Shown: one piece after another, positions 1 through 39,981 of the stretch
How the letters are laid out: each line of letters begins with the position of its first letter
Numbering within the stretch: the stretch's first letter is position 1
Source of the DNA: Anaerolineae bacterium
GTDB taxonomy: Bacteria > Chloroflexota > Anaerolineae > B4-G1 > SLSP01
DNA: 39,981 nt
Assembly (NCBI GenBank): GCA_018055515.1
Contig: JAGPHL010000002.1
Span: 1 to 39,981, forward strand
Direction of reading: 5' to 3'
Notes under the pieces: generated by a model
What the model was told of the DNA's origin: nothing
The model's database searches: none
Seen by the model: the letters and a program-made list of their open reading frames with translations, nothing else
Translations under genes and position numbers: made by a program

Positions 1-52
1 TCGCCTCTTCGACAGTAGGCGCCGTCATGACCATCTCTTGTTCGAGATCCAC
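1..52 (-). CDS. Partial CDS (N-terminus only, runs off the window); possibly KhpB/Jag-like RNA-binding protein
   Basis: GTG at 52 lies six nt after AGGAGG. It reads VDLEQEMVMTAPTVEEA and stays open to the window edge. Its position downstream of yidC fits the common yidC-jag arrangement. Only about 17 codons are visible. Confidence 0.3.
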   Translation of the reverse strand, partial: MDLEQEMVMTAPTVEEA

Positions 53-66
53 CACGTTCCTCCTCT

Positions 67-189
67 GAAAATAGAGATCAGTGAGTTGTGAGAAGAGAGT
101 CGTCGCAGCCCTCGATCACGACTCACAGCTCACGCCTCACATTGTCATCCGCGGTGGTGTGCCGCAGGAACATGTCAACCCCTCAGCAA
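67..189 (+). repeat. Dispersed intergenic element, copy 1 (module A ATAGAGA..GTGAGAAGAGAGTCGTCGC, a CTCAC heptamer arm, module B CGGTGGTGTGCCGCAGGAACATGTCAAC.CCTCAGCAA)
   Basis: About 90% identical by eye to 9380-9479. Both modules recur inverted at 39721-39793. Confidence 0.8.
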
Positions 190-246
190 GTCAGCGAATC
201 ACTTACGTTACCACGTGTGTGTCCGCGTTCGCAAACGCCAGGCCGG

Positions 247-1065
247 CTATTTGCCTTTAGCTTTTGCCGGCACTTTGGCAGGCGGCTTGCGCGACGTCTT
301 ATCTGCCGTCACAACCGATGCAGAGCTGGCAGCCGCTTTCTCGCTACTGACCGGCGCCCCGACGTAGTGACGCCGGAACAGAAAATATTGAGCAATCCCG
401 ATCAAGTTTGAAATCAACAGGTAGACCGAAAGCCCCGTCGCGTACTGAGCGGAGAAAAATCCCATCATCAACGGCATGGTGATCAACATGGACTGACTCA
501 TGGATTGCGCCTGCGGGTCGGCGTTGGCAGTCGCGGGGGTGAGCAGCTTTTGCTGATACCAGGTCGTCGCCATCACCAACAGCGGCATGATGAAGAACGG
601 ATCGCGCACGGCCAGATCCATCCACAGGAAACGGCCATTGAGGGGGGCCAGCGCACTGAGGCCGGGGATCCAGCGGTAGATGTGCGCCGACAGATCCAGC
701 AGCGCGATCGGCGTCGAAGCCAGCGCGCGAATGATCGCCCCATAGAGAGCGAACATCAACGGCAGCTGGATCAACATGGGCAGACAACCGCCAAGAGGGT
801 TAATGCCCAGCTCCTTGTACAAAGCCATTTGTTCCTGCGCCAGCCGTTCGCGGTCATTCTTGTATTTCTCCTGCAGCGCCTTCATGCGAGGCTGCAGCTC
901 CTGCTGTTTGCGCGCCATCTTCTGCTGGCTCAAGGTCAGCGGGGTAAGCGCTAGCCGCACGAGCAAAGTCAAGGCGGCTACCGCCAGCATCGTCTGATTC
1001 CCCAGCAGCTGGTAGAACAACAACAGCAAATTGGTCAACGGGTCAACAATGAGATAATCCCACAC
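247..1065 (-). CDS. yidC: Membrane protein insertase YidC (short, Oxa1-type)
   Basis: The ORF carries the typical YidC core (LTLSQQKMARKQQELQPRMKALQEKYKNDRERLAQEQMALYKELGINPLGGCLPMLIQLPLMFALY). It has a GTG start and sits in an rpmH-rnpA-yidD-yidC context. Confidence 0.92.
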   Translation of the reverse strand: MWDYLIVDPLTNLLLLFYQLLGNQTMLAVAALTLLVRLALTPLTLSQQKMARKQQELQPRMKALQEKYKNDRERLAQEQMALYKELGINPLGGCLPMLIQLPLMFALYGAIIRALASTPIALLDLSAHIYRWIPGLSALAPLNGRFLWMDLAVRDPFFIMPLLVMATTWYQQKLLTPATANADPQAQSMSQSMLITMPLMMGFFSAQYATGLSVYLLISNLIGIAQYFLFRRHYVGAPVSSEKAAASSASVVTADKTSRKPPAKVPAKAKGK

Positions 1066-7192: not shown

Positions 7193-9404
7193 CTCCAGCC
7201 CTCCGGTACGACGCCTCGGCGTGCGAGCCGTCGGCTTGCTGATGGCGCTGGCCCTGCTGCTGTCCGTTTCCACAGCGACCTCCGCGCGCAGGCGGGCCGA
7301 CGCCCCCACCCTCGACATCACGCTGCCCTGGGAGGGCGCGGTACGCTTCCCCGGTTGGACCGAGGTGCAGGTGACCCTCACCGCCGCGAAGACCCCCTGG
7401 AGCGGCGAATTGCGCCTCGAGGACCGCGGACAGAAGCTCACCTATCGGCGGGCGCTCACTCTTCCCGCCGGCGGCCGGCAATTCCTCCGCCTGCCGCTCT
7501 ACATCCCCGAATTCAGTCACTACACCCTGACGCTGGTCGAGCAGGGGAAAGCGCCCGCCTCCGGCCAACCCCTGCCCTTGCGTGCACTGGACGCGCAGGC
7601 GCGGTTTTGCGTCGCCGTGGACCCGCTGGGCCGCCTGGCGCCGGGAACGATCAATGGCTGTAAGAGCAGTTTGCTGCTCACCGACCTGGGGACATTGCCA
7701 GAAACCGCGATGGCATGGGATAGCGTGGACGTGTTGATCCTGCACGAGGTCGCGACGAGTGCGCTCACCGCCGCGCAACAGGAAGCGCTCTGGGCCTGGG
7801 TCAGCCTTGGCGGACACCTGACCGTAGTGGAAGGGCCAGGAACCGCGCAAACGCTCGCCGGTTTGCCCCGCGCGCTCCAGCAGGCCCTTGCGGCCCTCCC
7901 CGTGGGGATGACGTCCTCCCTTGGCGCGGGGACCCTCTCCCGCGTGCGGGCAGAAAATCCCGCCGCGACAGACTCCACGGCCTGGTTAGGGGACTGGACC
8001 GGGGAGCGCGTCCCGGCCGTCTCATGGTCGAACCTCAGGATTCCCCCTGCACCAGCGGCCGAAGCGCTCATGTCGGTGCCGCAAGCGTCGTTTCCCCGGC
8101 CGGCGCTGCTGTTGGGACTGCTGCCGGCCTACGCCCTCCTCGTCGGCCCGGGCATGTGGTGGCTGGCGCGGCGCCTGCACCGGCCCCGGCTCGTCTGGTT
8201 GCTGACGCCGTTGATGATCGGGGTGGCCGCCCTGAGCATGTGGCTGGGGCTGACCACGATTGTCGGCGGAGTCTTCCCCATCACCCACGAAATCGCCGTG
8301 ATCTTTGGCAATGACAAGGGAGGCCCGGCACGCGTGCTGCAAACGACGGCCATTTTCGCGCCTCGCGCCCGCGTCCTCACCTGGAACACGCAGCTCGCAC
8401 CCCGCCCTTTCGTCGGCTATTTCGATGCGGCAGCCAGCAGCTACTACTTCACCGCCAACCGGCCTTTCCCCGCCGAGGTGCTGTGGGCTGAAGGGACAAG
8501 CCAGATCCAGGCAACGCATCCCCCCGGCCCGCTCAGCTGGGCCGCAGAGGGGCTGATGACGCTGCCCGCTCTCGAAGCACAACTGGCCTTCGACACCGTC
8601 GCCGGCCGCACGGTGTTGCAGGGGACGCTGCGCAGCGAGATCGCTCTGGAAAAAGCGACGCTCATCCTGGGGGATGGGACCCATCGCCTGGCGTTGGCGG
8701 ATAATGTGCCGGCAGGCGTGCGGACTCAAATTTCTGTGCCGCTCCATTGGGTGCAGGAATTCGACCCCAACCTGCCCATCTGCTCCAACCTGAGCGGCGG
8801 GAATTTCTACTTCCCGTCGGCTGCCTTGACGCCGGTCACACCTCCCGAAAAAGGCTCCAACGTCCTCTGCTATCTGGTCGCGACGACCCCCGGCGTCCCC
8901 TACCCCACCCAGAATGCCAGCCAGAAGCGTGTCGAGGAAAGCTGCCTGATCCTCACCCTCCCCTGTCTGGCTTGGGGAAGTGGTCGTATGCCGTTGCTTC
9001 CCGCCCTCAGTTCCGAGAATCGGGGTTATGGCTGGCTGGATCCGACGGGAGGCGTCGCGCTGGCCAGCACCATGCCGGTGACGCTGATCTACACGCCGCT
9101 ATACTCAGGCACAGGCAACGACGCCTTCTCTGCACAAAGGCTTATCCTCAGCCTTGAGAAAGGAGGGGCGCTGCCGTCCTTCAGCCTGAAAATCTGGAGT
9201 TGGACCACGGAAGAGTGGATATCACAGCCGCCGCCTACGTCCACGGCGCCGCTGATTCTGGAAGGCGAGCTGGCCCGTCAGGTCTACGATCCCCGACAAG
9301 GAGTGCGGGTGCGCATCACCCCGGCTACCGAGACCTACTTCACCTTGTATCTCGACGTGAGCGTCGAAATCGCTTCTCAGAAAATAGAGAGCAGTGAGCC
9401 GTGA
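7179..9404 (+). CDS. Large hypothetical secreted/membrane protein
   Basis: The ATG overlaps the rlmI 3' end by 14 nt. It has a signal-like N-terminus (LLMALALLLSVSTATSA) and central TM segments (LLLGLLPAYALLVGPGMWWL, LLTPLMIGVAALSMWLGL). The last 8 codons lie inside repeat copy 2. The start is uncertain (alternative ATG at 7242). Confidence 0.65.
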   Translation: MWPPSSSPPVRRLGVRAVGLLMALALLLSVSTATSARRRADAPTLDITLPWEGAVRFPGWTEVQVTLTAAKTPWSGELRLEDRGQKLTYRRALTLPAGGRQFLRLPLYIPEFSHYTLTLVEQGKAPASGQPLPLRALDAQARFCVAVDPLGRLAPGTINGCKSSLLLTDLGTLPETAMAWDSVDVLILHEVATSALTAAQQEALWAWVSLGGHLTVVEGPGTAQTLAGLPRALQQALAALPVGMTSSLGAGTLSRVRAENPAATDSTAWLGDWTGERVPAVSWSNLRIPPAPAAEALMSVPQASFPRPALLLGLLPAYALLVGPGMWWLARRLHRPRLVWLLTPLMIGVAALSMWLGLTTIVGGVFPITHEIAVIFGNDKGGPARVLQTTAIFAPRARVLTWNTQLAPRPFVGYFDAAASSYYFTANRPFPAEVLWAEGTSQIQATHPPGPLSWAAEGLMTLPALEAQLAFDTVAGRTVLQGTLRSEIALEKATLILGDGTHRLALADNVPAGVRTQISVPLHWVQEFDPNLPICSNLSGGNFYFPSAALTPVTPPEKGSNVLCYLVATTPGVPYPTQNASQKRVEESCLILTLPCLAWGSGRMPLLPALSSENRGYGWLDPTGGVALASTMPVTLIYTPLYSGTGNDAFSAQRLILSLEKGGALPSFSLKIWSWTTEEWISQPPPTSTAPLILEGELARQVYDPRQGVRVRITPATETYFTLYLDVSVEIASQKIESSEP

Positions 9405-9479
9405 GAAGAGAGTCGTCGCAGCCTCCGCTCACGACCACAGCTCACATTTTCATCCGCGGTGGTGTGCCGCAGGAACATG
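9380..9479 (+). repeat. Dispersed intergenic element, copy 2
   Basis: Aligns with 67-175 (GAAAATAGAGAgCAGTGAGccGTGAGAAGAGAGTCGTCGCAGCC...CATCCGCGGTGGTGTGCCGCAGGAACATG). Confidence 0.8.
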
Positions 9480-9544
9480 GCGGCTCCTGGGGAACCAAAG
9501 AGCCGGCCAATTGCTCCAGGCATGTCAGACGATGTAAGTCTTTA

Positions 9545-9553
9545 TGGTATAAT
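9545..9553 (+). promoter_or_regulatory. Extended -10 element (TGgTATAAT) upstream of ychF
   Basis: TGGTATAAT lies 35 nt upstream of the ychF ATG. There is no good -35. Confidence 0.45.
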
Positions 9554-9587
9554 CAGGGCACAGCCCAAAATTTAGACGAGGCACAGC

Positions 9588-10670
9588 ATGAGATTAGGCA
9601 TCATTGGACTTCCCCTGAGCGGCAAAACGACCGTCTTCAATGCGCTGACCCGCAGTGACGTTCCCCCCACTACCGCCACAACCGGCAAGCTGGAAACGCA
9701 TACCGCCATCGTGGACGTGCCCGACGAGCGTGTGGACCGTCTGAGCGCCCTGTTCAAACCCCGCAAGACCATCTACGCCAAAGTCACCTACACCGATTTC
9801 GCCAACCTGGAGCAAGACGTCGGCAAGACCGGCCTCACGGGGCCCTTGCGCAACCAAATCGCCACCACCGACGCCTTCGTGCTGGTCATTCGCGGCTTCG
9901 AGAGCAGCGTCAGCCCTCATCCGCTGGGCAGCATCAACCCCCAACGCGACCTGGATCTGCTGCATAACGACTTCATGCTGGCGGACCTGGTCACCGTCGA
10001 GAATCGCCTCGCCCGAATTGATGAAATGCTGCACAAGGGCGCCCGCAGTGAGGAGCGCACGCGCTATCAGGAAGAACGTCTGCTGTTCGAGCGCCTGCAC
10101 GCGGGCCTCGAAGCCGGACAGCCGCTGCGCGATCTGGCCCTCACCCCCGCCGAAGTGGATAGCCTGGCAGGTTTTGGCCTGTTGAGCCTCAAGCCCACGC
10201 TCGTGCTGCTCAACACCGGCGAGGATCCCTGCGATCCCCACACGGTGCTTCGCTACGCACACCAGCAGACCGCCGTGATGGCGCTCCAGGGGAAGCTGGA
10301 GATGGAGCTGGCGCAGTTGCCCCCCGAAGAAGCCGCCATGTTCATGGAGGAATTCGGCATCCAGGAACTGGGGCTGGATCGGGTCATTCACACCTCCTAC
10401 CGATTGCTGGGATTATGCTCCTTCTTCACCGTAGGCGAAGACGAGGTGCGCGCCTGGACTCTGCGCCAGGGCTCGACAGCGCTCGATGCCGCGGCCGCAA
10501 TCCACACCGATCTGGCGCGCGGCTTCATCCGTGCGGAAGTGATCAGCTACGACGAATTGATCGCTCTTGGCGGCATGGTCGCCGCCCGCAAGGCCGGCAA
10601 AGTGCAGCTCGAGGGCAAAGAATACCTCGTGCGTGATGGCGATATTGTCCACATTCGCTTCTCGCTCTAG
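9588..10670 (+). CDS. ychF: Ribosome-binding ATPase YchF (Obg-family, TGS C-terminus)
   Basis: MRLGIIGLPLSGKTTVFNALT P-loop. The length and C-terminal end (EGKEYLVRDGDIVHIRF) are typical of YchF. Confidence 0.92.
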   Translation: MRLGIIGLPLSGKTTVFNALTRSDVPPTTATTGKLETHTAIVDVPDERVDRLSALFKPRKTIYAKVTYTDFANLEQDVGKTGLTGPLRNQIATTDAFVLVIRGFESSVSPHPLGSINPQRDLDLLHNDFMLADLVTVENRLARIDEMLHKGARSEERTRYQEERLLFERLHAGLEAGQPLRDLALTPAEVDSLAGFGLLSLKPTLVLLNTGEDPCDPHTVLRYAHQQTAVMALQGKLEMELAQLPPEEAAMFMEEFGIQELGLDRVIHTSYRLLGLCSFFTVGEDEVRAWTLRQGSTALDAAAAIHTDLARGFIRAEVISYDELIALGGMVAARKAGKVQLEGKEYLVRDGDIVHIRFSL

Positions 10671-21818: not shown

Positions 21819-21830
21819 CCTTCACCTCCT

Positions 21831-25431: not shown

Positions 25432-25737
25432 CTAGGCGGCGAGCGCCGGGCCCTCGTCGTCCGCCGCGTCGCTGCGTTGGTTCAACCCCAACAGGCGGTC
25501 AATCCTGGCGCGATTAAAGCCGACGACCATACGTCCGTCAATTTCCAATTGCGGCACCCCCTGTTCGCCGGTGCGCCGGACCATATCGCGCGCAGCCGCG
25601 GCATCGCGGGAGACGTCCACTTCCACGTAGCGGATGCCGTGCTGCTCCAGGTAGCGCTTCGCCGCGCGGCAGTGCGGACACGTCGGCGTCGAAAACACAA
25701 TGACCCGATGATGCTTCTTCTCAGATTTGGGACTCAT
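25432..25737 (-). CDS. Glutaredoxin-like protein (YruB/NrdH-like, CPHC active site)
   Basis: VIVFSTPTCPHCRAAKRYL......Y.EVDV......A..MV..TG..GVPQL.I.G..VVGF. Divergent from nrdR-nrdJ. Confidence 0.88.
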   Translation of the reverse strand: MSPKSEKKHHRVIVFSTPTCPHCRAAKRYLEQHGIRYVEVDVSRDAAAARDMVRRTGEQGVPQLEIDGRMVVGFNRARIDRLLGLNQRSDAADDEGPALAA

Positions 25738-29165: not shown

Positions 29166-29201
29166 TCCGCTGCGACCTGCAGCTTTTGCCCTTCCCCCTG
29201 C

Positions 29202-29237
29202 CCCCTCCCCAACGGCGCATACCCCGTTGGGGAGGGG
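29202..29237. other. Perfect 14-bp hairpin (CCCCTCCCCAACGG / CCGTTGGGGAGGGG) after nrdJ
   Basis: Read directly. No T-tract follows on the plus strand, so its terminator function is uncertain. Confidence 0.45.
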
Positions 29238-29288
29238 AGAAAAAATATAGGGGTTTTGCAGGCGGGCTACGTCCGCCTGCAAAACCCC
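29238..29288 (-). terminator. Intrinsic terminator of the S8 protease gene
   Basis: 16-bp stem GGGGTTTTGCAGGCGG / CCGCCTGCAAAACCCC. On the minus strand it is followed by TATATTTTTTCTCC. Confidence 0.6.
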
Positions 29289-29344
29289 ACAAAAACCGAT
29301 CTCAATTTTCCGAGAAGGTCTTCTGAGGCCCGCCAGGGCCATTT

Positions 29345-32300
29345 TTACGGCAGGGACAGCACCAACGGCAGGTAGATCAAGCGCAGCTCGCGTACCGTGA
29401 ACGTCCATGGCGCTTGCTCCGGGCTGACGCCGCCCCACACGTCATAGGCTGTCACCGTCCAGGTGTAGACGCCCTCCGCCAACACTGAAGGGGTATACGC
29501 CGTCGCCGCGCCCACGTCGTGCACCGCACCCGCCAGGGTGACGCGATAGCCCGCCGCCTCCGTCACCGGCTGCCATAACAGCGTCGGCGTCGTGTCAGTG
29601 ATGATCGCTCCATCTGCCGGGCTGAGCCGCTGCGGGGCAGGCAGTACGTCGCGCACAGTCAGAGCCGCGGGAAGCGTCGCCGACACGCAATCACCGTTAA
29701 AGAGAGTCGCCGTGTAGCTGCCCGCCGCGAGACCCGCCGGCAGGATCCCCGTCACCGACGTCGAGCTCACCAGCGTGACCGAAAGCAGCCACGTCGCGCC
29801 CACCCGCACGGCAGGCAAACCCGCAAAGCGTTCGCCTGTCAACGTCAACAACGTCGGCATATTGCCCACCACAGAGGCCGGCGTGAGAGTTGCAATCCCC
29901 GGCGCCGGATGGGGAGGGAGCAGGCTCGTGAGCTGCACATCGTCAACGTACCAGCCAGAAGCGCCGATGCTGCTATCACACCCGATGCGCCAGCGGATCT
30001 GCACGGCGTTCCCGGCGTAGGCGCTCAAATCCACCACGACTTCACTCCACGCGCTCAGCGCGCCCGTCCAGCCAGAACGCCCCGCCAATGGATTGGAAGT
30101 CCCCGACTGAATGAGGCCATTGTAGCCATGGGACGTCATGTGCGAGCCCAAATCGGCCCACGTCGCCCCGTCATCGGTAGAAATCTCCAGCACCGCGCCA
30201 TCCCAGGCAAAAGAACCGCTGCCCTCAAACTCATAGCGGTGCCAGAAACGCAACGTGCTCCCCGCGCCTACCGGCACCGCAACGACGTTCCACAAGCGGC
30301 TGTCGGTCGTGGCCGGCGCATCGGGGATGAACCAGGCGTGGACCGGGCTGTGCGATTCCGCTGACGAGAGCGTCCAAGAAGCCTCACCGGTGACAGTCTG
30401 CCAGGACCACTTCCCGTCGCCGGATTCCAGATCGTCGGCAAGGCCCACTCCCAGCGCGGCAGTCGCAAAATGGAAGGGTTCAGCCCAGGCCCCATGGCCA
30501 CAGGCATTGTCGCCCTGCGCGCGCCACCAGTAACACACACCGCTCTCCAACGTCGCCGGGGCCGAATAGGTAGCCGTGCTCACCCGCGTATCCACGAGCG
30601 GCGCGATAAACGTCGGGGTACGATCCACCTGCACGCGATAGCCGGTCGCCAGCGGCTGCGCCTTCCAGGCGAGAGACAGGGCATCGAAGGGTTGAGCGGT
30701 CGCCCCGGCGGGGGGAGTCAACAACGTCGGCGTCTCAGGCACGCAGGTATTGATCCACAACGCCAGCTCCGCCGTGTGCACATGCGTGCCCTCCGCCGTC
30801 GCGGAGATGACGAGGGGATAACGCCCGGCAAGCGCTTCAGGCCCCGCTGCCAGCGTGAGGAGCACCTCCGCCGGCGGCAACACCACCGCCGACGAGAAGG
30901 TCGCCGTCACCCCCAACGGGGCTTGCAACGCGAGAGCGACCTCTTCCGCGTACCCCGCCAACTGCCCCACCGCGACGGTCGCCGTCACCACGCCCGGGGC
31001 GCAGACCGCCGCCGCTGACGGTTCGACCGTCAACGTGAAATCGGGCTCCCGCAGGCAGTTGTAGCAAACGAAGGCAAAATCCTGATCGGTCGTGTCGCCG
31101 ACATGGGGGACGCCGTCGCCGGCGATATTGGCCGCGAGCACGCGGACGGTAAAACGCTCCGGCGCTGTCGGGCCGAGGAAAACGCCCTCGGTGTTGTTCC
31201 TTCCATCCGCCGCGCCGCCTGGCTGCGACCAACCGCTGGCAGCGAAGGCATTCCCACGGTAGGTGTTGCCGTCCGCGAGCACTTCCAGGTTCAGGTCGTT
31301 TACCCAGGCGGGGGTGCTGCCGCCCAGTCCGTGGCCGGGGGCATCGGTCCACACCAGCATCATGCGCACCGGCTGCGTGGGATCCGCGGCGCGCAACGGC
31401 TGTTCCCACAGCTCCCCCGTCGCCTCGAGGATCCGGGGAGCATCGAAATACAGCACCGGCAAGGCCGGATCCACAACGGCTTCGAGGTCCAACCGTCCCC
31501 ACCCCTGCTTGCTGTCGAAGGGATGCCCCAAGATACCGCCGTCGGCGTCATGAAAACCCGCGAGATCGTGCGCCGCCGGCAGGAATGCCGCCTTCACCAG
31601 CGCGGGGCTGGGATCCACGCCGGTCAGGCCGCGATAGTATTGGATGAAGAGCGCTGCGGCGCCGCTCACCTGCGGCGAGGCCATGCTCGTGCCGCACATC
31701 GTGCCGTAGGAATCCGTGGGCAGGGTCGAATCCACGTAACACCCCGGAGCGACCAGGTGCGGGATGTTGCGCCCATCCAGGGCGGGACCGTGCGCCGAAT
31801 TGGCCGAGATGTCGTTGATGGCCAGGATCTGCGAGCCGGTGCTGGTCTGCATCCTGGTCGAGCCGACGGTGAAAATGTTCTTGGCCTCATCGGGGCTGCC
31901 CTGCGAGCTCACGCCGCCGTTGCCATTCATGATGGAGAGCACGTAGGTAAGCGACTGATTGCCCGCGTGCGTCAGATCGGCGTCACGGACGCCCACATCC
32001 ACTTTGCGCGTGTCCGCATCGTAACCCTGGGGCGTGCCCGCCAGCCCCCAGCTGTTGCCGGAGATCAGCGCGCCGTTGGCGACGGAATCCTGCATCAAGG
32101 CGGTGAGATCGTAGGTGCTGTAAAGCTGCTCCACGAGCCGGGCACCGGGCGCGACACCGAGTCCCCGCAGAAAGCCGCGGCTATCCACGACGCCCGAACT
32201 TCCGTCCGCCGCCATGATGCCGGCGGTGTGCGTGCCGTGTGCGCTGGAGATGGCCGCGCCACAGGTCACGCCGGCACAGGGAGCCATCCGGTGCACCAGG

Positions 32301-33109
32301 TCGGGATGGGTCTCCTGGATGCCGCTGTCCACGTGCGCGATGATCACACCCGCGCCATCGAGTCCTACCGCGGCGAGCCAGTCGCGGTACCCCGGAAACG
32401 CTTGATTGCCCGCGTCCACGTTGTTGACGTTGACCTGAGCGCTCATTTCGCCGCGCGTCGCGCGTGTGGTGGAGATCGGCTGGAGGGTATAGACGCCGGG
32501 AATGCGCGCCGCCTGCATCAGCCGATCCCCCGGCAGCGTCATCGTCAGGCCGTCGAAGCCGTAGCCCAGGTCCAGGGGCTCCTCCTGCAGCTGCGCCCCC
32601 AGCGCCGCGAGATCGCTGAGCACCGATGCCCGTCCCGCGCCGCGATACACCAGCGCTTGAACGGCGAGGGGCGTCGCCTCGAGGGCGCGCCACGGCGGCA
32701 AGACGCGATACGCCGGGGCGAAGGGGCCGGTCCAGCGGACGAAATTCAGCGCGGAGGCCCGCTTCAGGGCAGAAGAGTCGCCCCATACGACATACGTGAA
32801 GGGGTGGATGTACTGCACAATCTCCAGGCCGCTCTGCTCCAGGGCCGGCAGCCAGGTCACCTGCGTCGGACCGAACAGCTGCACCAGCTGCAAATCGGGG
32901 CCCCCTGTCGAGGCGTAGCGCGCCGCTAAAGAGAATGCCGGCTCGTCCACCAGCGGGTCGAAGGTCACCCCGCCGAGGTCGAGCGTGTAATCGTAGGATG
33001 GCGCCGCGCCCTCAACGTCGGCACTCAAAGAAGAAGCTGTCGGAGCAACCGGGGCAAACCCCAACATCAAAAGCGCCACTACAGCGCCGCCGCGACACCA
33101 GGTCTGCAT
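29345..33109 (-). CDS. Large secreted multidomain subtilisin-like (S8) serine protease
   Basis: It has a signal peptide. The catalytic triad blocks are AHVDSGI (Asp), HGTHTAGI (His) and GTSMASPQVSGAAALF (Ser). A beta-sandwich region follows the catalytic domain (MLVWTDAPG...NDLNLEV). C-terminal Ig/FN3-like repeats and a MAM-like domain (GWYVDDVQL) complete it. Confidence 0.9.
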   Translation of the reverse strand: MQTWCRGGAVVALLMLGFAPVAPTASSLSADVEGAAPSYDYTLDLGGVTFDPLVDEPAFSLAARYASTGGPDLQLVQLFGPTQVTWLPALEQSGLEIVQYIHPFTYVVWGDSSALKRASALNFVRWTGPFAPAYRVLPPWRALEATPLAVQALVYRGAGRASVLSDLAALGAQLQEEPLDLGYGFDGLTMTLPGDRLMQAARIPGVYTLQPISTTRATRGEMSAQVNVNNVDAGNQAFPGYRDWLAAVGLDGAGVIIAHVDSGIQETHPDLVHRMAPCAGVTCGAAISSAHGTHTAGIMAADGSSGVVDSRGFLRGLGVAPGARLVEQLYSTYDLTALMQDSVANGALISGNSWGLAGTPQGYDADTRKVDVGVRDADLTHAGNQSLTYVLSIMNGNGGVSSQGSPDEAKNIFTVGSTRMQTSTGSQILAINDISANSAHGPALDGRNIPHLVAPGCYVDSTLPTDSYGTMCGTSMASPQVSGAAALFIQYYRGLTGVDPSPALVKAAFLPAAHDLAGFHDADGGILGHPFDSKQGWGRLDLEAVVDPALPVLYFDAPRILEATGELWEQPLRAADPTQPVRMMLVWTDAPGHGLGGSTPAWVNDLNLEVLADGNTYRGNAFAASGWSQPGGAADGRNNTEGVFLGPTAPERFTVRVLAANIAGDGVPHVGDTTDQDFAFVCYNCLREPDFTLTVEPSAAAVCAPGVVTATVAVGQLAGYAEEVALALQAPLGVTATFSSAVVLPPAEVLLTLAAGPEALAGRYPLVISATAEGTHVHTAELALWINTCVPETPTLLTPPAGATAQPFDALSLAWKAQPLATGYRVQVDRTPTFIAPLVDTRVSTATYSAPATLESGVCYWWRAQGDNACGHGAWAEPFHFATAALGVGLADDLESGDGKWSWQTVTGEASWTLSSAESHSPVHAWFIPDAPATTDSRLWNVVAVPVGAGSTLRFWHRYEFEGSGSFAWDGAVLEISTDDGATWADLGSHMTSHGYNGLIQSGTSNPLAGRSGWTGALSAWSEVVVDLSAYAGNAVQIRWRIGCDSSIGASGWYVDDVQLTSLLPPHPAPGIATLTPASVVGNMPTLLTLTGERFAGLPAVRVGATWLLSVTLVSSTSVTGILPAGLAAGSYTATLFNGDCVSATLPAALTVRDVLPAPQRLSPADGAIITDTTPTLLWQPVTEAAGYRVTLAGAVHDVGAATAYTPSVLAEGVYTWTVTAYDVWGGVSPEQAPWTFTVRELRLIYLPLVLSLP

Positions 33110-33129
33110 GTCACACCTCCTCGAAAATA

Positions 33130-33162
33130 GCGAAAAGGCGAAAAAGCGAATCAGCGAAAAAA
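33130..33162. repeat. Four tandem octamers GCGAAnnn in the protease 5' leader region
   Basis: GCGAAAAG GCGAAAAA GCGAATCA GCGAAAAAA, read directly. A related CAGCGA motif occurs at 190-200 and 36297-36320. Confidence 0.55.
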
Positions 33163-33281
33163 CTACTTACATGGCAAAGAGGGCACGAACTTCAGGCCGC
33201 TCTGAAGAAGACACGCAAACTCATTCTTATTCTCGGCAATACACGGGCGTGATTGCGACGCGACGGATTCTACACTTCGGG

Positions 33282-34802: not shown

Positions 34803-35282
34803 TCACTCTTTCTTCGCTGCAGCCGGTGCTGCAGGAGCGGGGGGCTGCTTCGACAATTCCGGTTCCATCTGTGGCGGTTTGATGTCCTTCGGCATGATGA
34901 CCTGCCCGCTCACGTAGGCACCTTCATTGGTGAGGATGACTTTGACGGTCATATCGCCCCACACCCGTCCGGTCGCCAACACCTCGACGCGGTTCGCGGA
35001 GATATTTCCCTTGACCGCGCCGGCAATAGACACGTTGCCGGCCTTGATTTCGGCAAGCACCTTAGCGCTCTCGGTGATCACCAGATTGCCCGTCGTCGTG
35101 ATGGTGCCTTCGACCACCCCTTCGATGCGCAAACTGCCATCCCCCTGGATGTCGCCTTTGACATGGGTGTTCGGACCGATGGTGGTCTCGATGGGCCGGG
35201 AGGGAGCCGCAGCCGGACGGACCGCAGGCGTGACGGATACGGCGGGCGCCTCCTCTTCTCGTGTTTTTTCCTTACCCCACAT
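34803..35282 (-). CDS. Bactofilin (polymer-forming cytoskeletal protein)
   Basis: Beta-helical repeat pattern (I.G.V.G.I......V.I...A.V.G.I.A..V.V.G.V.G) flanked by Pro/Ala-rich termini. Confidence 0.9.
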   Translation of the reverse strand: MWGKEKTREEEAPAVSVTPAVRPAAAPSRPIETTIGPNTHVKGDIQGDGSLRIEGVVEGTITTTGNLVITESAKVLAEIKAGNVSIAGAVKGNISANRVEVLATGRVWGDMTVKVILTNEGAYVSGQVIMPKDIKPPQMEPELSKQPPAPAAPAAAKKE

Positions 35283-35982: not shown

Positions 35983-36234
35983 CTACGACAACCCCAGCAA
36001 GGCGTCCAGGCGGGCGCGGTCGAAGCCTACCACTATCTCATTCCCTACCTGAATGACCGGCACGCCCTGCTGTCCACTGCGCTGCACCATGTACTGCGCC
36101 GCGATCATGTTCTGTGAGACGTCTTCGTCCTCAAAAGGCACGCCGCGCTGCTGCAAATAGCGCTTCGCCGCCTGACAGTAAGGGCAGGTCGGCGTCGAAA
36201 AAACGATGACGCGAGGCCAGGATCGAGTCGCCAT
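35983..36234 (-). CDS. Glutaredoxin-like protein (CPYC), paralogue of 25432-25737
   Basis: VIVFSTPTCPYCQAAKRYLQQRGVPFEDEDV...GQQGVPVIQVGNEIVVGFDRARLDALLGL. Confidence 0.9.
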   Translation of the reverse strand: MATRSWPRVIVFSTPTCPYCQAAKRYLQQRGVPFEDEDVSQNMIAAQYMVQRSGQQGVPVIQVGNEIVVGFDRARLDALLGLS

Positions 36235-36254
36235 AGACGTACCTCCTTCAAAAA

Positions 36255-36282
36255 TGCGTAATGCGTGATGCGTAATGCGTAA
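36255..36282. repeat. Four tandem heptamers TGCGTAA/TGCGTGA in the grx2 leader
   Basis: TGCGTAA TGCGTGA TGCGTAA TGCGTAA, between the SD and the rest of the leader. Confidence 0.7.
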
Positions 36283-36605
36283 GTGATCTCCTCAAAAAAT
36301 CAGCGAGTCAGCGAAAAGGTGAAAAAGCAAGAAAATCGCGTGCAAGGCAAAGGTAACGCAAACTTCAGGCTGCGCTCAGGCCGCCCCGGAATGAATTCCG
36401 GGTCTGACAGGTCGAGTTCGCTGAAGCGATCTCCCCAACAACGCGCTTCAGCGCGGTTGCCTTTATCAGGCTGAGATTTCATCGCCGGCCGAACTGCTCG
36501 CAACTCACATTCCTGTTCTCGGCTGCTTCTCACCATCCGCTGACAACGCCTTCAGTATAAAAGCATTTGGCGCGGGGTCAATCCCCCCTATCCCATCGCG
36601 CACTC

Positions 36606-38788: not shown

Positions 38789-39655
38789 ATGTTCACGGCT
38801 GTGATGACGGAAGTGTTGGCTGACCCTCTCCGCCCGACCGGGCCCATCGGCGTCTTCGATTCAGGCGTCGGTGGACTCTCCGTCTGGCGGGAGCTTGTCC
38901 GACAACTTCCCCACGAAAGCACCCTCTACGTCGCCGATCAAGCTCACGTGCCCTACGGGACGCGGTCGTTAGCCGAGGTGCGTGACTACGCGAAAGGCAT
39001 CGCGCGATTCCTGCGCGCGCGGGGTGCCAAAATCATCGTCATCGCCTGCAACACCGCCTCCGGCGCGGCCCTCCGCACCCTGCGCGAGGCCTTCCCTGAG
39101 ATTCCCTTTGTCGGCATGGAACCCGCCGTCAAACCCGCCGCAGAACGCACCCGCAGCGGCGTGATTGCCGTCATAGCGACGCCGGCGACCTTTCAAGGAG
39201 AGCTCTTCCACAGTCTCGTGGAGCGCTTTGCCACGAACGTGCGGTTGGAGACGCAAATTTGCCCCGGCCTGGTGGAACAAGTCGAGCGGGGTGAGTGGGA
39301 CGCCCCCGAAACGGAGGCCCGGCTACGGGAATGCCTCACCCCCTTGCTGCACGCCGGTGCAGATCAGCTGGTGTTGGGCTGCACGCACTACCCTTTCCTG
39401 GCGGAGGCCATCGCCCGCATCACGGGACCAGAAATCGCGCTGGTGGATCCCGCTCCCGCGGTGGCGCGACAGACCGCGCGCGTCCTGGAGCAGCTGGAGC
39501 TGACCGCTCCCGCTTCGGCCACGGCACGACACCTCTTCTACACCACCGGGACGCCGGAAACTCTGCGCATCCTGGCCCGACGATTGGTGGCGTTTGAGGG
39601 ACCGGTGCTGCAAGCGACCTGGCAGGGGAACGATCTCAGAGAAAATAATGTGTGA
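38789..39655 (+). CDS. murI: Glutamate racemase
   Basis: IGVFDSGVGGLSV, IVIACNTAS and LVLGCTHYPFL (both catalytic Cys blocks). Confidence 0.93.
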   Translation: MFTAVMTEVLADPLRPTGPIGVFDSGVGGLSVWRELVRQLPHESTLYVADQAHVPYGTRSLAEVRDYAKGIARFLRARGAKIIVIACNTASGAALRTLREAFPEIPFVGMEPAVKPAAERTRSGVIAVIATPATFQGELFHSLVERFATNVRLETQICPGLVEQVERGEWDAPETEARLRECLTPLLHAGADQLVLGCTHYPFLAEAIARITGPEIALVDPAPAVARQTARVLEQLELTAPASATARHLFYTTGTPETLRILARRLVAFEGPVLQATWQGNDLRENNV

Positions 39656-39660
39656 AGGGT

Positions 39661-39709
39661 GAGTTGCGAGTTGTGAGTTGCGAGTTGTGAGTTGTGAGTT
39701 GTGAGTTGT
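39661..39709. repeat. Seven tandem heptamers GAGTTG(C/T)
   Basis: GAGTTGC GAGTTGT GAGTTGC GAGTTGT GAGTTGT GAGTTGT GAGTTGT, starting 6 nt after the murI stop. Confidence 0.88.
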
Positions 39710-39720
39710 AAGCGGAAACG

Positions 39721-39793
39721 GCGACGACTTTCTTCTCACGGCTCTCTATTTGCTGAGGAGTTGACATGTTCCTGCAGCACACCACCGAAAATG
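39721..39793 (-). repeat. Dispersed intergenic element, copy 3 (inverted; modules B and A directly abutted)
   Basis: The reverse complement reads CATTTTCGGTGGTGTGCTGCAGGAACATGTCAACTCCTCAGCAA|ATAGAGAGCCGTGAGAAGAAAGTCGTCGC, matching module B (147-189) and module A (71-106) of copy 1. Confidence 0.75.
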
Positions 39794-39799
39794 CAAATA

Positions 39800-39839
39800 A
39801 CGTGGGCACGTGGGAACGTGGGAACGTGGGCACGTGGGC
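39800..39839. repeat. Five tandem octamers ACGTGGG(C/A)
   Basis: ACGTGGGC ACGTGGGA ACGTGGGA ACGTGGGC ACGTGGGC, followed by a degenerate ATGTG. Confidence 0.85.
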
Positions 39840-39864
39840 ATGTGTTTATTTTCGAGGAGACGCC

Positions 39865-39981
39865 ATGTGCTGGCGCACATCATCCAAGGATGATCGCGTC
39901 AAGAAGCCCGTAATGATGGGAAAGGAGGCTTCCTGGAAATTCATTGAGGTTAGCCAGTGGGTGCAAAGCCCACCTACCCAA
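39865..39981 (+). CDS. Possible partial CDS (5' end only), unknown product
   Basis: The ATG is preceded by TATTTTCGAGGAGacgcc, the same leader context as four other genes here. The frame is open to the window end (39 codons, MCWRTSSKDDRVKKPVMMGKEASWKFIEV...). No homology was recognised. Confidence 0.3.
   Translation, partial: MCWRTSSKDDRVKKPVMMGKEASWKFIEVSQWVQSPPTQ

What the first reader, a model, noticed from the sequence alone, without database searches (positions are those of the whole stretch)
59..189. Dispersed intergenic element family (3 copies) with GTGAG/CTCAC heptamer arms and a predicted three-helix hairpin
SEEN: 67-189 and 9380-9479 are about 90% identical by eye over about 100 nt. 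Both conserved modules recur inverted at 39721-39793, but there module B abuts module A directly. This is a circularly permuted order, as if sampled from a tandem array. In copy 1, GTGAG (81-85) and GTGAG (88-92) can pair with CTCAC (136-140) and CTCAC (129-133), and GAGTCGT (97-103) pairs with ACGACTC (118-124). The result is a long imperfect hairpin. The CTCAC arm varies in unit number: 3 in copy 1, about 2 in copy 2, 7 in copy 3. INFERENCE: this is either a structured RNA/DNA element (REP/MITE-like, or a leader RNA module) or a hotspot of heptamer slippage. I do not recognise it as a named family. Spurious ORFs 88-411, 9401-9658 and 39636-39833 share peptide fragments only because they read through it.
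Basis: partly seen in the sequence, partly recalled or inferred. Interest (0 to 1): 0.6.

Follow-up and report, generated by a model that had tools for sequence, protein, structure and literature searches.

The report
Repeat cassettes carrying ribosome-binding sites
The three look-alike stretches belong to a family of over 200 small repeated cassettes in an uncultured Anaerolineae bacterium that sit in front of about a tenth of its genes, always point the same way as the gene, and end in that gene's ribosome-binding site; this is a rare but previously described kind of bacterial repeat.

Summary
Copies 1 and 2 are about 87% identical, and copy 3 is inverted and permuted.

- **Family size.** The assembly is a 2.7-Mb Anaerolineae MAG. 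It holds 248 non-overlapping family hits, 220 of them intergenic.
- **Orientation.** The family is strand-locked. Of 161 hits with a neighbouring gene, 141 point toward a co-oriented downstream gene, 106 of them within 30 nt.
- **Architecture on the functional strand.** An SD copy comes first, then box B (spacer, ATG, TTCCTGCGGCACACCACC, AATGAAAATG), then an interchangeable core. In the reported copies the core is a hairpin with GTGAGNN/CTCACNN arms. The unit ends in CTCTATTTTC followed by the gene's own SD.
- **Insertion sites.** Two clean filled/empty sites against a close relative (thrS behind its T-box, and the RtcB operon spacer) show insertion exactly at the SD, with 5–6 nt of SD duplicated. 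Repeated hits would build head-to-tail chains, which explains the "circular permutation".
- **What is missing.** I found no Rfam match, no sigma-70 promoter or terminator motif, no Y1 transposase or reverse transcriptase, and only weak covariation.
- **Closest known.** Neisseria REP2-type RBS-carrying repeats and the TAACTGA/STRR heptamer leaders.

This scan had already noted a similar "mobile leader cassette" in another Anaerolineae genome.

The parts
1..55 (-). 5' end of the jag/KhpB-like gene. It starts with GTG at 55-53 or 52-50 and is the gene served by copy 1. yidC (247-1065, minus strand) lies upstream.
   Evidence: The orthologous yidC-jag junctions of G002, G003 and G005 share VV(D/E)(L/F)EQE... 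starts. YidC matches Pfam 60KD_IMP.
59..76 (-). Copy 1, module S: CTCTATTTTC plus AGAGGAGG. This is the A/U-rich cassette end plus the working Shine-Dalgarno of jag.
   Evidence: Coordinates. Genome-wide, 119 of 154 S motifs are followed within 3-13 nt by an ORF of at least 100 aa, against 13.7% for random positions.
81..140 (-). Copy 1 hairpin core. The 5' arm GTGAGGCGTGAGCTGTGAGTCGT is at 140-118, the loop region at 117-93, and the 3' arm CTCACAACTCAC at 92-81.
   Evidence: RNAfold of the copy. Pair counts on 42 copies give 83.5% paired, against 35-49% when slid.
141..173 (-). Copy 1 box B1 with tail t: ATGTTCCTGCGGCACACCACCGC plus GGATGACAAT. The ATG is at 173-171.
   Evidence: Coordinates. 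About 37 B1 copies are listed. The S-B-t stretch is 80-87% identical in other Anaerolineae families.
174..232 (-). Copy 1 upstream part: the 5-nt spacer TTGAC, a degenerate SD copy (GAGGGG), and remnants of an older unit made of ACGTG-type and CGCTGA-type octamers.
   Evidence: Read directly. Compare the module grammar.
9373..9492 (-). Copy 2: a complete S-h3-loop-h5-t-B1 unit with a decayed SD (GAGAAG) and no TTGAC. It is antisense to both neighbouring genes. It replaces a roughly 620-nt small membrane-protein gene that G001, G002 and G005 carry here. It also supplies the last codons and the stop of the upstream 727-aa gene.
   Evidence: Synteny with G001 and junction sequences.
39639..39760 (+). 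Copy 3, first unit. It has a t-like start straight after the stop codon of gene 38789-39655, then 7.3 GTGAGTT units, a loop, one CTCAC unit, and module S (CTCTATTTGCTGAGGAG).
39761..39859 (+). Copy 3, second unit. It has box B1 (TTGAC-ATGTTCCTGCAGCACACCACC...), then 5.6 ACGTGGGC octamers in place of the hairpin, then module S (TTTATTTTCGAGGAG).
39860..39981 (+). Start of a third unit (box B2, ACGCC-ATGTGCTGGCGCACA...) that runs off the contig end.
   Evidence: The same sequence ends contig C23.
35283..35370 (-). Short family member (CTCAC units plus S) serving gene 34803-35282. G001 has a full S0-B2-t-hairpin-S unit at the same site.
   Evidence: (D5).
33110..33165 (-). K-tail, CGCTTTTT/CGCTGATT arrays and S in front of the 1254-aa gene 29345-33109. 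G001 has an ACGTG-octamer array joined to the same SD (GGAGGTGTGACATG).
36235..36560 (-). Long-form family member (h5, X, K, F and D arrays, S, ACGCATY heptamers, S) in front of gene 35983-36234.
21819..21830 (-). Empty site. This is the native SD (GTGAAGGAGGTGAAGG-ATG) between two genes of the RtcB operon. G001 carries a 247-nt family insertion exactly here, flanked by a GAAGG duplication.

Best explanation
The element at 59-189 is one unit of a lineage-specific, high-copy, mosaic "leader cassette" family. Read on the strand opposite to the window's + strand, it lies in the yidC-jag spacer.

A unit runs from box B through an interchangeable structured core to CTCTATTTTC.
- Box B is a 5-nt spacer, an ATG, TTCCTGCGGCACACCACC or the B2 variant, and AATGAAAATG.
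- The core in the reported copies is a hairpin whose arms are GTGAGNN and CTCACNN heptamers. Other copies carry octamer arrays or a multi-hairpin body of about 250 nt.

Cassettes land in or directly beside a gene's Shine-Dalgarno (SD) sequence and leave an SD copy on each side. The right-hand SD, now preceded by the cassette's A/U-rich end, remains the gene's ribosome-binding site. The left-hand SD sits 5 nt before the cassette's own ATG. Repeated insertion at SD copies builds head-to-tail chains, which explains copy 3.

**Shown here:**
- the copy number;
- the strand lock;
- that the 3' module is a real translation start region;
- location inside a 5' UTR and inside operon spacers;
- insertion and replacement differences against a close relative;
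- conservation of the S-B-t end across Anaerolineae families.

**Inferred:**
- The cassettes are co-transcribed with the gene.
- Only sense-oriented copies that restore an SD and carry no terminator are tolerated.
- The compact fold and the in-frame TGA codons in the heptamer and octamer arrays keep them harmless, or insulate or stabilise the mRNA start.
- Spread uses host recombination or template switching at SD microhomology, or an enzyme I did not identify.
For: **Abundance and orientation**
- There are 248 non-overlapping hits, 220 of them intergenic.
- 141 of 161 hits that carry the SD end have a co-oriented downstream gene, 106 of them within 30 nt. The binomial p is 1e-23.
- Companion arrays are equally strand-locked: CGCTGAYT 50 to 1 and CGCTTTTT 51 to 4.

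**The 3' module is a real translation start**
- 119 of 154 S motifs precede an ORF of at least 100 aa within 3-13 nt. The figure is 13.7% for random positions and 18.6% for any GGAGG.

**Location inside transcripts**
- C11:1-92 is the 3' part of a T-box leader, followed by a roughly 300-nt cassette and then thrS (Pfam).
- Five congeners have T-box terminator, AAGGAGG and ATG with no cassette. G000 has AAGGAG on both sides of the insert.
- The RtcB-operon spacer is empty in G000 and holds a 247-nt insert flanked by GAAGG in G001.
- The yidC-jag spacer is 33-60 nt in cassette-free congeners, 195 nt in G000 and about 390 nt in G001.

**Turnover**
- All 8 alignment breaks in 36 kb of G000/G001 synteny (93-97% identical blocks) fall at intergenic spacers. 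The five I read all carry repeats: four of this family and one of the separate hairpin family P.

**Grammar and conservation**
- The module order is constant while cores are interchangeable.
- The S-B-t end is 80-87% identical in four other Anaerolineae families, with the same layout.

**Strand of the structure**
- The functional strand folds more stably than its complement in 29 of 36 copies, because of G·U pairs.

**Downstream genes**
- They are unrelated housekeeping genes.
Against:
- **SD duplication is not general.** It is seen in just two recent events. Genome-wide, the SD before B and the SD after the unit are no more alike than shuffled pairs.
- **Many differences are replacements, not clean insertions**.
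- **Copies are fairly diverged.** They are 75-92% identical to one another, which is low for a recently active mobile element.
- **No mobilising enzyme found.** Y1_Tnp is absent from G000, and RVT_1 is absent from all six carriers among the 41 genomes searched (G000 and 40 relatives).
- **Structural covariation is weak.** 8 pairs show double changes against 4.3 in shuffles. An alternative inner helix fits equally well, the t:S pairing shows no covariation, and RNAalifold predicts no consensus.
- **Gene calls are my own.** They come from a crude coding-score caller on a fragmented MAG.
Confidence: 0.6

Rival explanations
1. It is a cis-regulatory leader with an upstream mini-ORF. Box B's SD and ATG would start a short peptide (MFLRHTTxNEN...). 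Translating or stalling on it would open the hairpin and control translation or read-through of the downstream gene. This would resemble attenuators or a natural bicistronic design.
For: - The SD, 5-nt spacer and ATG are present in about 32 of 37 B1 copies and in 6 of 7 cross-family examples.
- B1 and B2 differ by two compensating 1-nt indels that keep the 36-nt ATG-to-tail length.
- GTGAGNN arrays put a TGA in every frame within three units, so any mini-ORF ends in the 5' arm (read directly).
- The tail GAAAAT can pair with ATTTTC next to either SD.
Against: - The ATG is no better conserved than neighbouring bases.
- The shared GCACAYCAYC core is read in different frames in B1 and B2, which points to conservation at the nucleotide level.
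- Several copies carry frame-breaking indels, and stop positions vary.
- Downstream genes share no function.
- Orthologous genes gain and lose the cassette between close relatives.
Confidence: 0.15
2. It is a conventional non-autonomous transposon (MITE or REPIN-like) moved by a transposase encoded elsewhere. The orientation bias would then arise only from selection.
For: - The family shows presence/absence differences between close relatives, with short direct duplications at two fresh insertions.
- Its distribution is patchy: 1 of 5 congeners, and 5 of 300 sampled class members.
- 71 of 248 hits lie within 300 nt of contig ends, so the family breaks the assembly.
Against: - There are no terminal inverted repeats. 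The ends are box B and TATTTTC.
- G000 has no Y1 transposase, while cassette-free congeners do.
- Carriers have no reverse transcriptase.
- No related coding element was found.
- The duplication signal is not general.
Confidence: 0.1
3. It is a portable promoter or operator cassette, a "mobile promoter" like Neisseria REP2. The arrays or box B would bind a transcription factor, and TATTTT would serve as the -10 element.
For: - S contains a -10-like TATTTT.
- In CGCTGACT-array copies a CTGACT sits 17 nt upstream of it (read directly).
- Some copies begin right after an intrinsic terminator of the upstream gene (C232, C274), so a downstream promoter would be needed if termination is efficient.
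Against: - The sigma-70 scan finds no promoter-like site in any of the three window copies.
- The thrS copy lies downstream of a T-box, whose read-through transcript must traverse it.
- Many copies sit in operon spacers such as yidC-jag and the RtcB operon.
- Hairpin-type copies have no -35-like hexamer.
Confidence: 0.1
4. It is a neutral by-product of replication slippage and recombination in spacers, with no selected role.
For: - Unit numbers vary.
- About 150 intergenic 7/8-nt arrays exist.
- Turnover between relatives is high.
Against: - The strand lock is strong (p = 1e-23).
- The module order is fixed.
- 54 nt of S-B-t are conserved at 80-87% across families.
Confidence: 0.05

Closest known systems
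Neisseria REP2 repeats and Borrelia plasmid IR-A/IR-B (Parkhill 2000; Morelle 2003; reviewed by Delihas 2011, PMC3184786)
   Same: - Dispersed repeats of 120-180 nt without terminal inverted repeats.
- Internal stem-loops.
- Placed immediately upstream of, and co-oriented with, unrelated genes.
[quoted passage not shown]
- Thought to derive from a gene's 5' UTR.
   Different: - Different phylum, and no sequence relation was tested.
- Copy number is about ten times higher (over 200 against about 26).
- Cores are mosaic and interchangeable, with heptamer and octamer arrays.
- No promoter motif was found.
- Insertion at the SD with SD duplication is documented here.
TAACTGA heptamer direct repeats of Beggiatoaceae, cyanobacteria and Bacteroidetes, and cyanobacterial STRR heptamers (MacGregor 2015, PMC4679880)
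   Same: - Tandem 7-nt units in forward orientation just upstream of start codons.
- Patchy phylogenetic distribution.
- No pattern in downstream gene function.
- A proposed translational role.
- Stop codons contained in the repeat unit (my own recollection of that paper; not among the parts I read).
   Different: - Here the heptamers are arms of a hairpin inside a longer conserved cassette.
- A canonical SD is present and used, whereas canonical RBSs are rare at the TAACTGA sites.
- The unit sequences differ.
Pneumococcal BOX and enterobacterial BIME/ERIC mosaic repeats (own knowledge; Delihas 2011)
   Same: - Modular build with a variable number of internal units.
- Intergenic and co-transcribed.
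- Fold into stable hairpins.
   Different: - Those occur in both orientations, often 3' of genes, and do not supply the RBS.
- BIME/REP families are linked to RAYT transposases, which were not found here.
Putative mobile promoters (Matus-Garcia et al. 2012; commentary PMC3575422)
   Same: Highly similar 5' regions in front of non-homologous genes within one genome.
   Different: - No promoter motif was found.
- At least one copy lies downstream of the promoter and the T-box leader.

Membership tests
REP / REPIN / BIME | A RAYT (Y1 transposase, PF01797) is encoded in the genome | tested here: not met
   G000 has 0 matches, while cassette-free congeners G002, G003 and G005 have 2-5. The MAG is 94% complete, so absence is not proven.
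REP / REPIN / BIME | Short G+C-rich imperfect palindrome with a conserved GT[AG]G head, found in either orientation and mostly 3' of genes | tested here: not met
   Hairpin arms exist. However, 141 of 161 copies are co-oriented with, and 5' of, a gene.
MITE | Terminal inverted repeats | tested here: not met
   The unit ends are box B (ACGCC/TTGAC-ATG...) and ...CTCTATTTTC. These are not inverted copies of each other.
MITE | Target-site duplication of fixed length | tested here: inconclusive
   AAGGAG is duplicated at thrS and GAAGG at the RtcB spacer. A genome-wide comparison of flanking SDs shows no excess identity. Several events are replacements.
MITE | A related autonomous element that encodes a transposase | tested here: inconclusive
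   Only Y1_Tnp and RVT_1 were searched, and both were negative in carriers. The one B2-led unique continuation sits at two contig ends and is absent from G001.
REP2-type RBS-carrying leader repeats | Immediately upstream of, and co-oriented with, unrelated genes | tested here: met
REP2-type RBS-carrying leader repeats | [quoted passage not shown] | tested here: met
   S supplies the SD. Box B has an SD copy, a 5-nt spacer and an ATG. Hairpins are predicted.
REP2-type RBS-carrying leader repeats | Contains a promoter | tested here: not met
   There are no sigma-70-like sites in the three window copies. The thrS copy lies behind a T-box. Activity itself cannot be tested here.
TAACTGA / STRR heptamer leaders | Tandem 7-nt units, intergenic, in forward orientation just upstream of starts, with patchy distribution | tested here: met
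TAACTGA / STRR heptamer leaders | The repeat itself replaces or overlaps the RBS, and a canonical SD is mostly absent | tested here: not met
   A canonical GGAGG-type SD follows the cassette and is used.
Described cis-regulatory RNA (Rfam) / riboswitch | Match to a curated covariance model | tested here: not met
   There are 0 hits at gathering score in the window. In E-value mode on 10 loci, the only meaningful hit is the neighbouring T-box.
Described cis-regulatory RNA (Rfam) / riboswitch | Covariation-supported structure and functionally coherent downstream genes | tested here: not met
   Covariation is weak, and RNAalifold gives no consensus. Downstream genes are diverse.

The most novel reading that the evidence does not exclude
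The cassettes could be a genuinely SD-targeting mobile element class. In that reading, an unidentified site-specific system would recognise the conserved box B/TATTTTC ends and integrate at Shine-Dalgarno sequences. Alternatively or in addition, box B is conserved at 80-87% across Anaerolineae families and could be the docking site of a trans-acting RNA-binding factor. Such a factor would coordinate translation of about a tenth of the proteome through these leaders.
Probability: 0.15. Interest if true: 0.8.

Novelty: new variant of a known kind. Interest (0 to 1): 0.5.

Why it matters
If the reading holds, roughly one gene in ten in this Anaerolineae lineage is translated from a ribosome-binding region supplied, or re-framed, by a repeated cassette. 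That cassette is gained, lost and swapped between genomes whose genes are about 95% identical. The family would then be:
- a main source of spacer variation;
- a cause of small-gene loss;
- a main cause of assembly breaks in these MAGs;
- a natural set of portable translation-start modules.

It also links two poorly understood phenomena, REP2-type RBS-carrying repeats and heptamer-repeat leaders, in one system. The system has clear filled and empty sites, so the insertion rule (at the SD) can be tested. For annotation, ORFs that read through these cassettes should be treated as spurious.

Tried and rejected
- **Rfam.** Gathering mode on the window and E-value mode on 10 loci found no family for the element.
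- **IS200/IS605 or RAYT link.** Rejected. PF01797 is absent from G000 and present in cassette-free congeners.
- **Retro-element spread.** Rejected. RVT_1 is absent from all six carriers among the 41 genomes searched (G000 and 40 relatives) and present in 18 non-carriers.
- **Sigma-70 promoter or intrinsic terminator in the copies.** None found.
- **Covariation.** The signal is weak in the hairpin and absent for the t:S closing helix. RNAalifold gave an empty consensus.
- **Genome-wide target-site-duplication test.** Negative.
- **A "master" coding element behind box B2 at the window end.** The sequence occurs only at two contig ends and not in G001.
- **Integron attC or VCR-like array.** Considered and dismissed, because copies are scattered beside housekeeping genes on many contigs.
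- **Pairing of box B with the SD copy just upstream.** Predicted in G000 copies but not kept in other families, so I do not claim it.
- **Literature.** A search for a Chloroflexi description of such repeats found nothing.

Full report
**1. Observation**

The three stretches are real.
- Window 60-122 against 9373-9435 is 87% identical, and so is 131-183 against 9436-9488.
- Both blocks recur as inverted repeats at 39705-39798 (I1-I3; alignment).
- TRF reports 7.3 GTGAGTT units at 39659-39709. Copy 1 has three CTCAC units. Copy 2 has two intact units and one degenerate unit.
- Rfam finds nothing in the window at gathering score.

**2. A large family, not three copies**

The window is contig C39 of a 2.70-Mb, 300-contig genome with 63% G+C. 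Its closest public relatives are Anaerolineae MAGs.
- A DNA search finds 49 matches in the genome. Iterated nhmmer finds 82, then 223, then 294 hits, of which 248 are non-overlapping.
- 71 of the 248 lie within 300 nt of a contig end, against 6.7% expected. The family therefore breaks the assembly, and the counts are lower bounds.
- The C50 hit is simply the overlap with the start of C39.

**3. Orientation and gene context**

I called genes with my own codon-score caller, which gave 2253 genes and 90% coverage.
- 220 of the 248 hits are intergenic.
- 161 hits carry the CTCCTC..GAAAATAG end and have a neighbouring gene. For 141 of them the gene lies downstream on the same strand when the element is read in reverse of the window's + strand. 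For 106 the gene is within 30 nt. The binomial p is 1e-23.
- On that "functional" strand copy 1 reads ...TTGAC-ATGTTCCTGCGGCACACCACCGC-GGATGACAAT-(GTGAGNN)3-loop-(CTCACNN)2-TGAT-CTCTATTTTC-AGAGGAGGAAC-GTG. It runs into the jag-like gene that follows yidC.
- The motif TATTTTC-N-RRGGAG is a genuine translation start region. 119 of 154 occurrences are followed within 3-13 nt by an ORF of at least 100 aa. The figure is 13.7% for random positions and 18.6% for any GGAGG.

**4. Modular grammar**

Regex and fuzzy annotation of all upstream regions gives a constant order with interchangeable cores:
- an optional ACGTG-octamer array;
- S;
- B1 or B2;
- tail t;
- one core;
- S, optionally followed by ACGCATY heptamers and another S;
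- the start codon.

The core is one of these:
- GTGAG arm, loop, CTCAC arm;
- GTGAG arm, loop, X, K, then CGCTTTTT and CGCTGAYT arrays;
- K plus arrays;
- an octamer array;
- J, loop, CTCAC arm.

A long form of about 330 nt exists in roughly 37 copies. The reported hairpin form looks like an internal-deletion derivative of it.

The genome holds about 150 intergenic 7/8-nt tandem arrays, and they are equally strand-locked.

Each unit ends in S and the next begins with B. A chain of units therefore shows B directly after S. That is the "circular permutation" of copy 3, which is in fact two and a half units.

**5. The cassettes lie inside transcripts**

- In E-value mode Rfam finds no family for the element. 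It does identify C11:1-92 as the 3' part of a T-box leader (38 bits, E = 8e-6, cut by the contig end).
- That T-box is followed by a roughly 300-nt long-form cassette and then threonyl-tRNA synthetase.
- In five congeners the same T-box terminator is followed directly by AAGGAGG-TGCAGCA-ATG. In G000 the cassette sits between two AAGGAG copies.
- In the RtcB-operon spacer the roles are reversed. G000 has the empty site GTGAAGG|AGGTGAAGG-ATG (window 21819-21830). G001 has a 247-nt family insert flanked by GAAGG.
- The yidC-jag spacer is 33-60 nt in cassette-free congeners, 195 nt in G000 and about 390 nt in G001, with different modules.
- No sigma-70 promoter-like or terminator-like site is found in the three window copies.

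**6. Turnover**

G000 and G001 are syntenic over window 220-36255 in blocks 93-97% identical.
- All eight breaks in the alignment are at intergenic spacers. The five I read all carry repeats: four of this family and one of a second hairpin family.
- Copy 2 replaces a roughly 620-nt small membrane-protein gene that G001, G002 and G005 have upstream of ychF. It is antisense to its neighbours and has a decayed SD. It also provides the last codons and stop of the upstream gene.
- Other contigs show the same pattern. A few sites are shared, most differ, and one G000 gene is replaced by repeats in G001.
- Copies are 75-92% identical to each other. The young thrS insert has a best match of 92%.

**7. 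Structure**

- Every full copy folds into the long hairpin. The functional strand is more stable than its complement in 29 of 36 copies (mean -46.4 against -42.0 kcal/mol), as expected from G·U pairs.
- On 42 aligned hairpins, 83.5% of cells pair, against 35-49% when the partner is slid. Double changes are only modestly above shuffles (8 pairs against 4.3; 7 of 500 shuffles reach that). An alternative inner helix fits as well.
- The tail GAAAAT can pair with ATTTTC, but without covariation.
- RNAalifold returns no consensus.
- The hairpin is therefore a conserved inverted repeat. Its selection at the RNA level is plausible but not demonstrated.

**8. Distribution**

- Among 40 relatives, the full family occurs only in G001, which is 1 of 5 congeners. 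Parts of it occur in G007, G012 and G021, with a single weak match in G027.
- In 300 genomes sampled across the class, the 54-nt S-B-t end is found at 80-87% identity in four further genomes of three other families, as well as in G021.
- Those copies have the same layout: S0, B, t, a different core, S1, then the gene.

**9. Mobilising enzymes**

- Y1 transposase is absent from G000 and present in cassette-free congeners.
- RVT_1 is absent from all six carriers among the 41 genomes searched (G000 and 40 relatives) and present in 18 non-carriers.
- A genome-wide test for identical SDs on both sides of a unit is negative.
- The mechanism of spread therefore remains open. Candidates are host recombination, template switching at SD microhomology, or an unidentified site-specific system.

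**10. Function**

- Downstream genes are unrelated housekeeping genes: ADH, HMG-CoA reductase, GlnA, ThrRS, Adk, MiaB, AtpG, a nucleotidyl transferase and a ROK kinase. A specific regulon or riboswitch is unlikely.
- I commit to this reading: these are tolerated, self-propagating leader cassettes. They survive only when sense-oriented, free of terminators and able to restore an SD.
- They may add an A/U-rich enhancer and a 5' hairpin to the gene's start region.
- The mini-ORF reading of box B is kept as the main rival. In its favour, the SD, 5-nt spacer and ATG are mostly kept, and the ATG-to-tail length is kept between B1 and B2. Against it, the shared core is read in different frames and frames are often broken.

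**11. Comparison with what is known**

- The nearest described kind is the Neisseria REP2 / Borrelia IR class. These are TIR-less, stem-loop-containing repeats with an RBS and an ATG, located directly upstream of genes.
- The heptamer aspect matches the TAACTGA/STRR leaders.
- This scan's earlier notes describe a "mobile leader cassette carrying ribosome-binding site" and TTCGCTGA octamer leaders in other Anaerolineae genomes. I reached the same reading independently before seeing them, and took from them the REP2 lead.
- I found no paper describing such repeats in Chloroflexota.

**12. Verdict**

This is a real, abundant and well-organised family. It is a new variant of a known but rare kind of repeat, and its effect on RNA is unproven.

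Noticed in passing
window 29168-29315: A second, unrelated dispersed repeat family. It consists of twin G/C-rich hairpins (CCCCTCCCCAACGGCGCAT..GTTGGGGAGGGG and GGGGTTTTGCAGGCGGGCTACG..CCGCCTGCAAAACCCC) and ends in an S-like AATTTTCCGAGAAGG. It lies between convergent genes. It is absent at this site in G001, where a plain bidirectional terminator hairpin stands. It is present in G001's yidC-jag spacer and interrupts a box B1 in G001 C44.
   Followed up: partly
window 9405-9543 versus G001 C20 27086-27744: G000 has lost a small membrane-protein gene of about 620 nt that G001, G002 and G005 carry upstream of ychF. The ychF promoter (TGGTATAAT) and a remnant of the lost gene's last codons are retained.
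   Followed up: yes
G000 C161 11340-11780: The reverse case. A small AhpD/CMD-like gene is present in G000, while G001 has family modules at the same place.
   Followed up: partly
window 39860-39981 and the end of contig C23: Box B2 is followed by a unique continuation (ORF MCWRTSSKDDRVKKPVMMGKEASWK...). It occurs only at these two contig ends and not in G001. This is probably a two-copy region that the assembler could not resolve.
   Followed up: partly
G000 C11 1-92: The 3' half of a T-box leader upstream of thrS, cut by the contig end. The full leader, with its TTGACA/TATAAT promoter, is visible in G001-G005.
   Followed up: yes
long-form copies, e.g. G000 C81, C65, C140, C274 versus C232, C11: The hairpin GGCTGGGGAT-GGA-ATCCCCAGCC occurs with its loop inverted (TCC instead of GGA) in several copies. 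This looks like loop flipping of a quasi-palindrome at the DNA level.
   Followed up: no
G000-G005 genome sizes: The two cassette-rich congeners have smaller assemblies (2.7 and 3.5 Mb) than the four cassette-free ones (4.1-4.9 Mb). The carriers among the 40 relatives also lack reverse transcriptase genes.
   Followed up: no
window 25610-25708 and 36116-36214: A 99-nt direct repeat at 76% identity lies inside two small minus-strand genes (25432-25737 and 35983-36234). These are probably paralogous genes and not part of the repeat family.
   Followed up: no
window 33122-33161 and 36253-36282: CGAAAAAG octamers and AATGCGT heptamers on the + strand are the reverse complements of the CGCTTTTT and ACGCATT arrays that belong to the leaders of the minus-strand genes 29345-33109 and 35983-36234.
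   Followed up: yes
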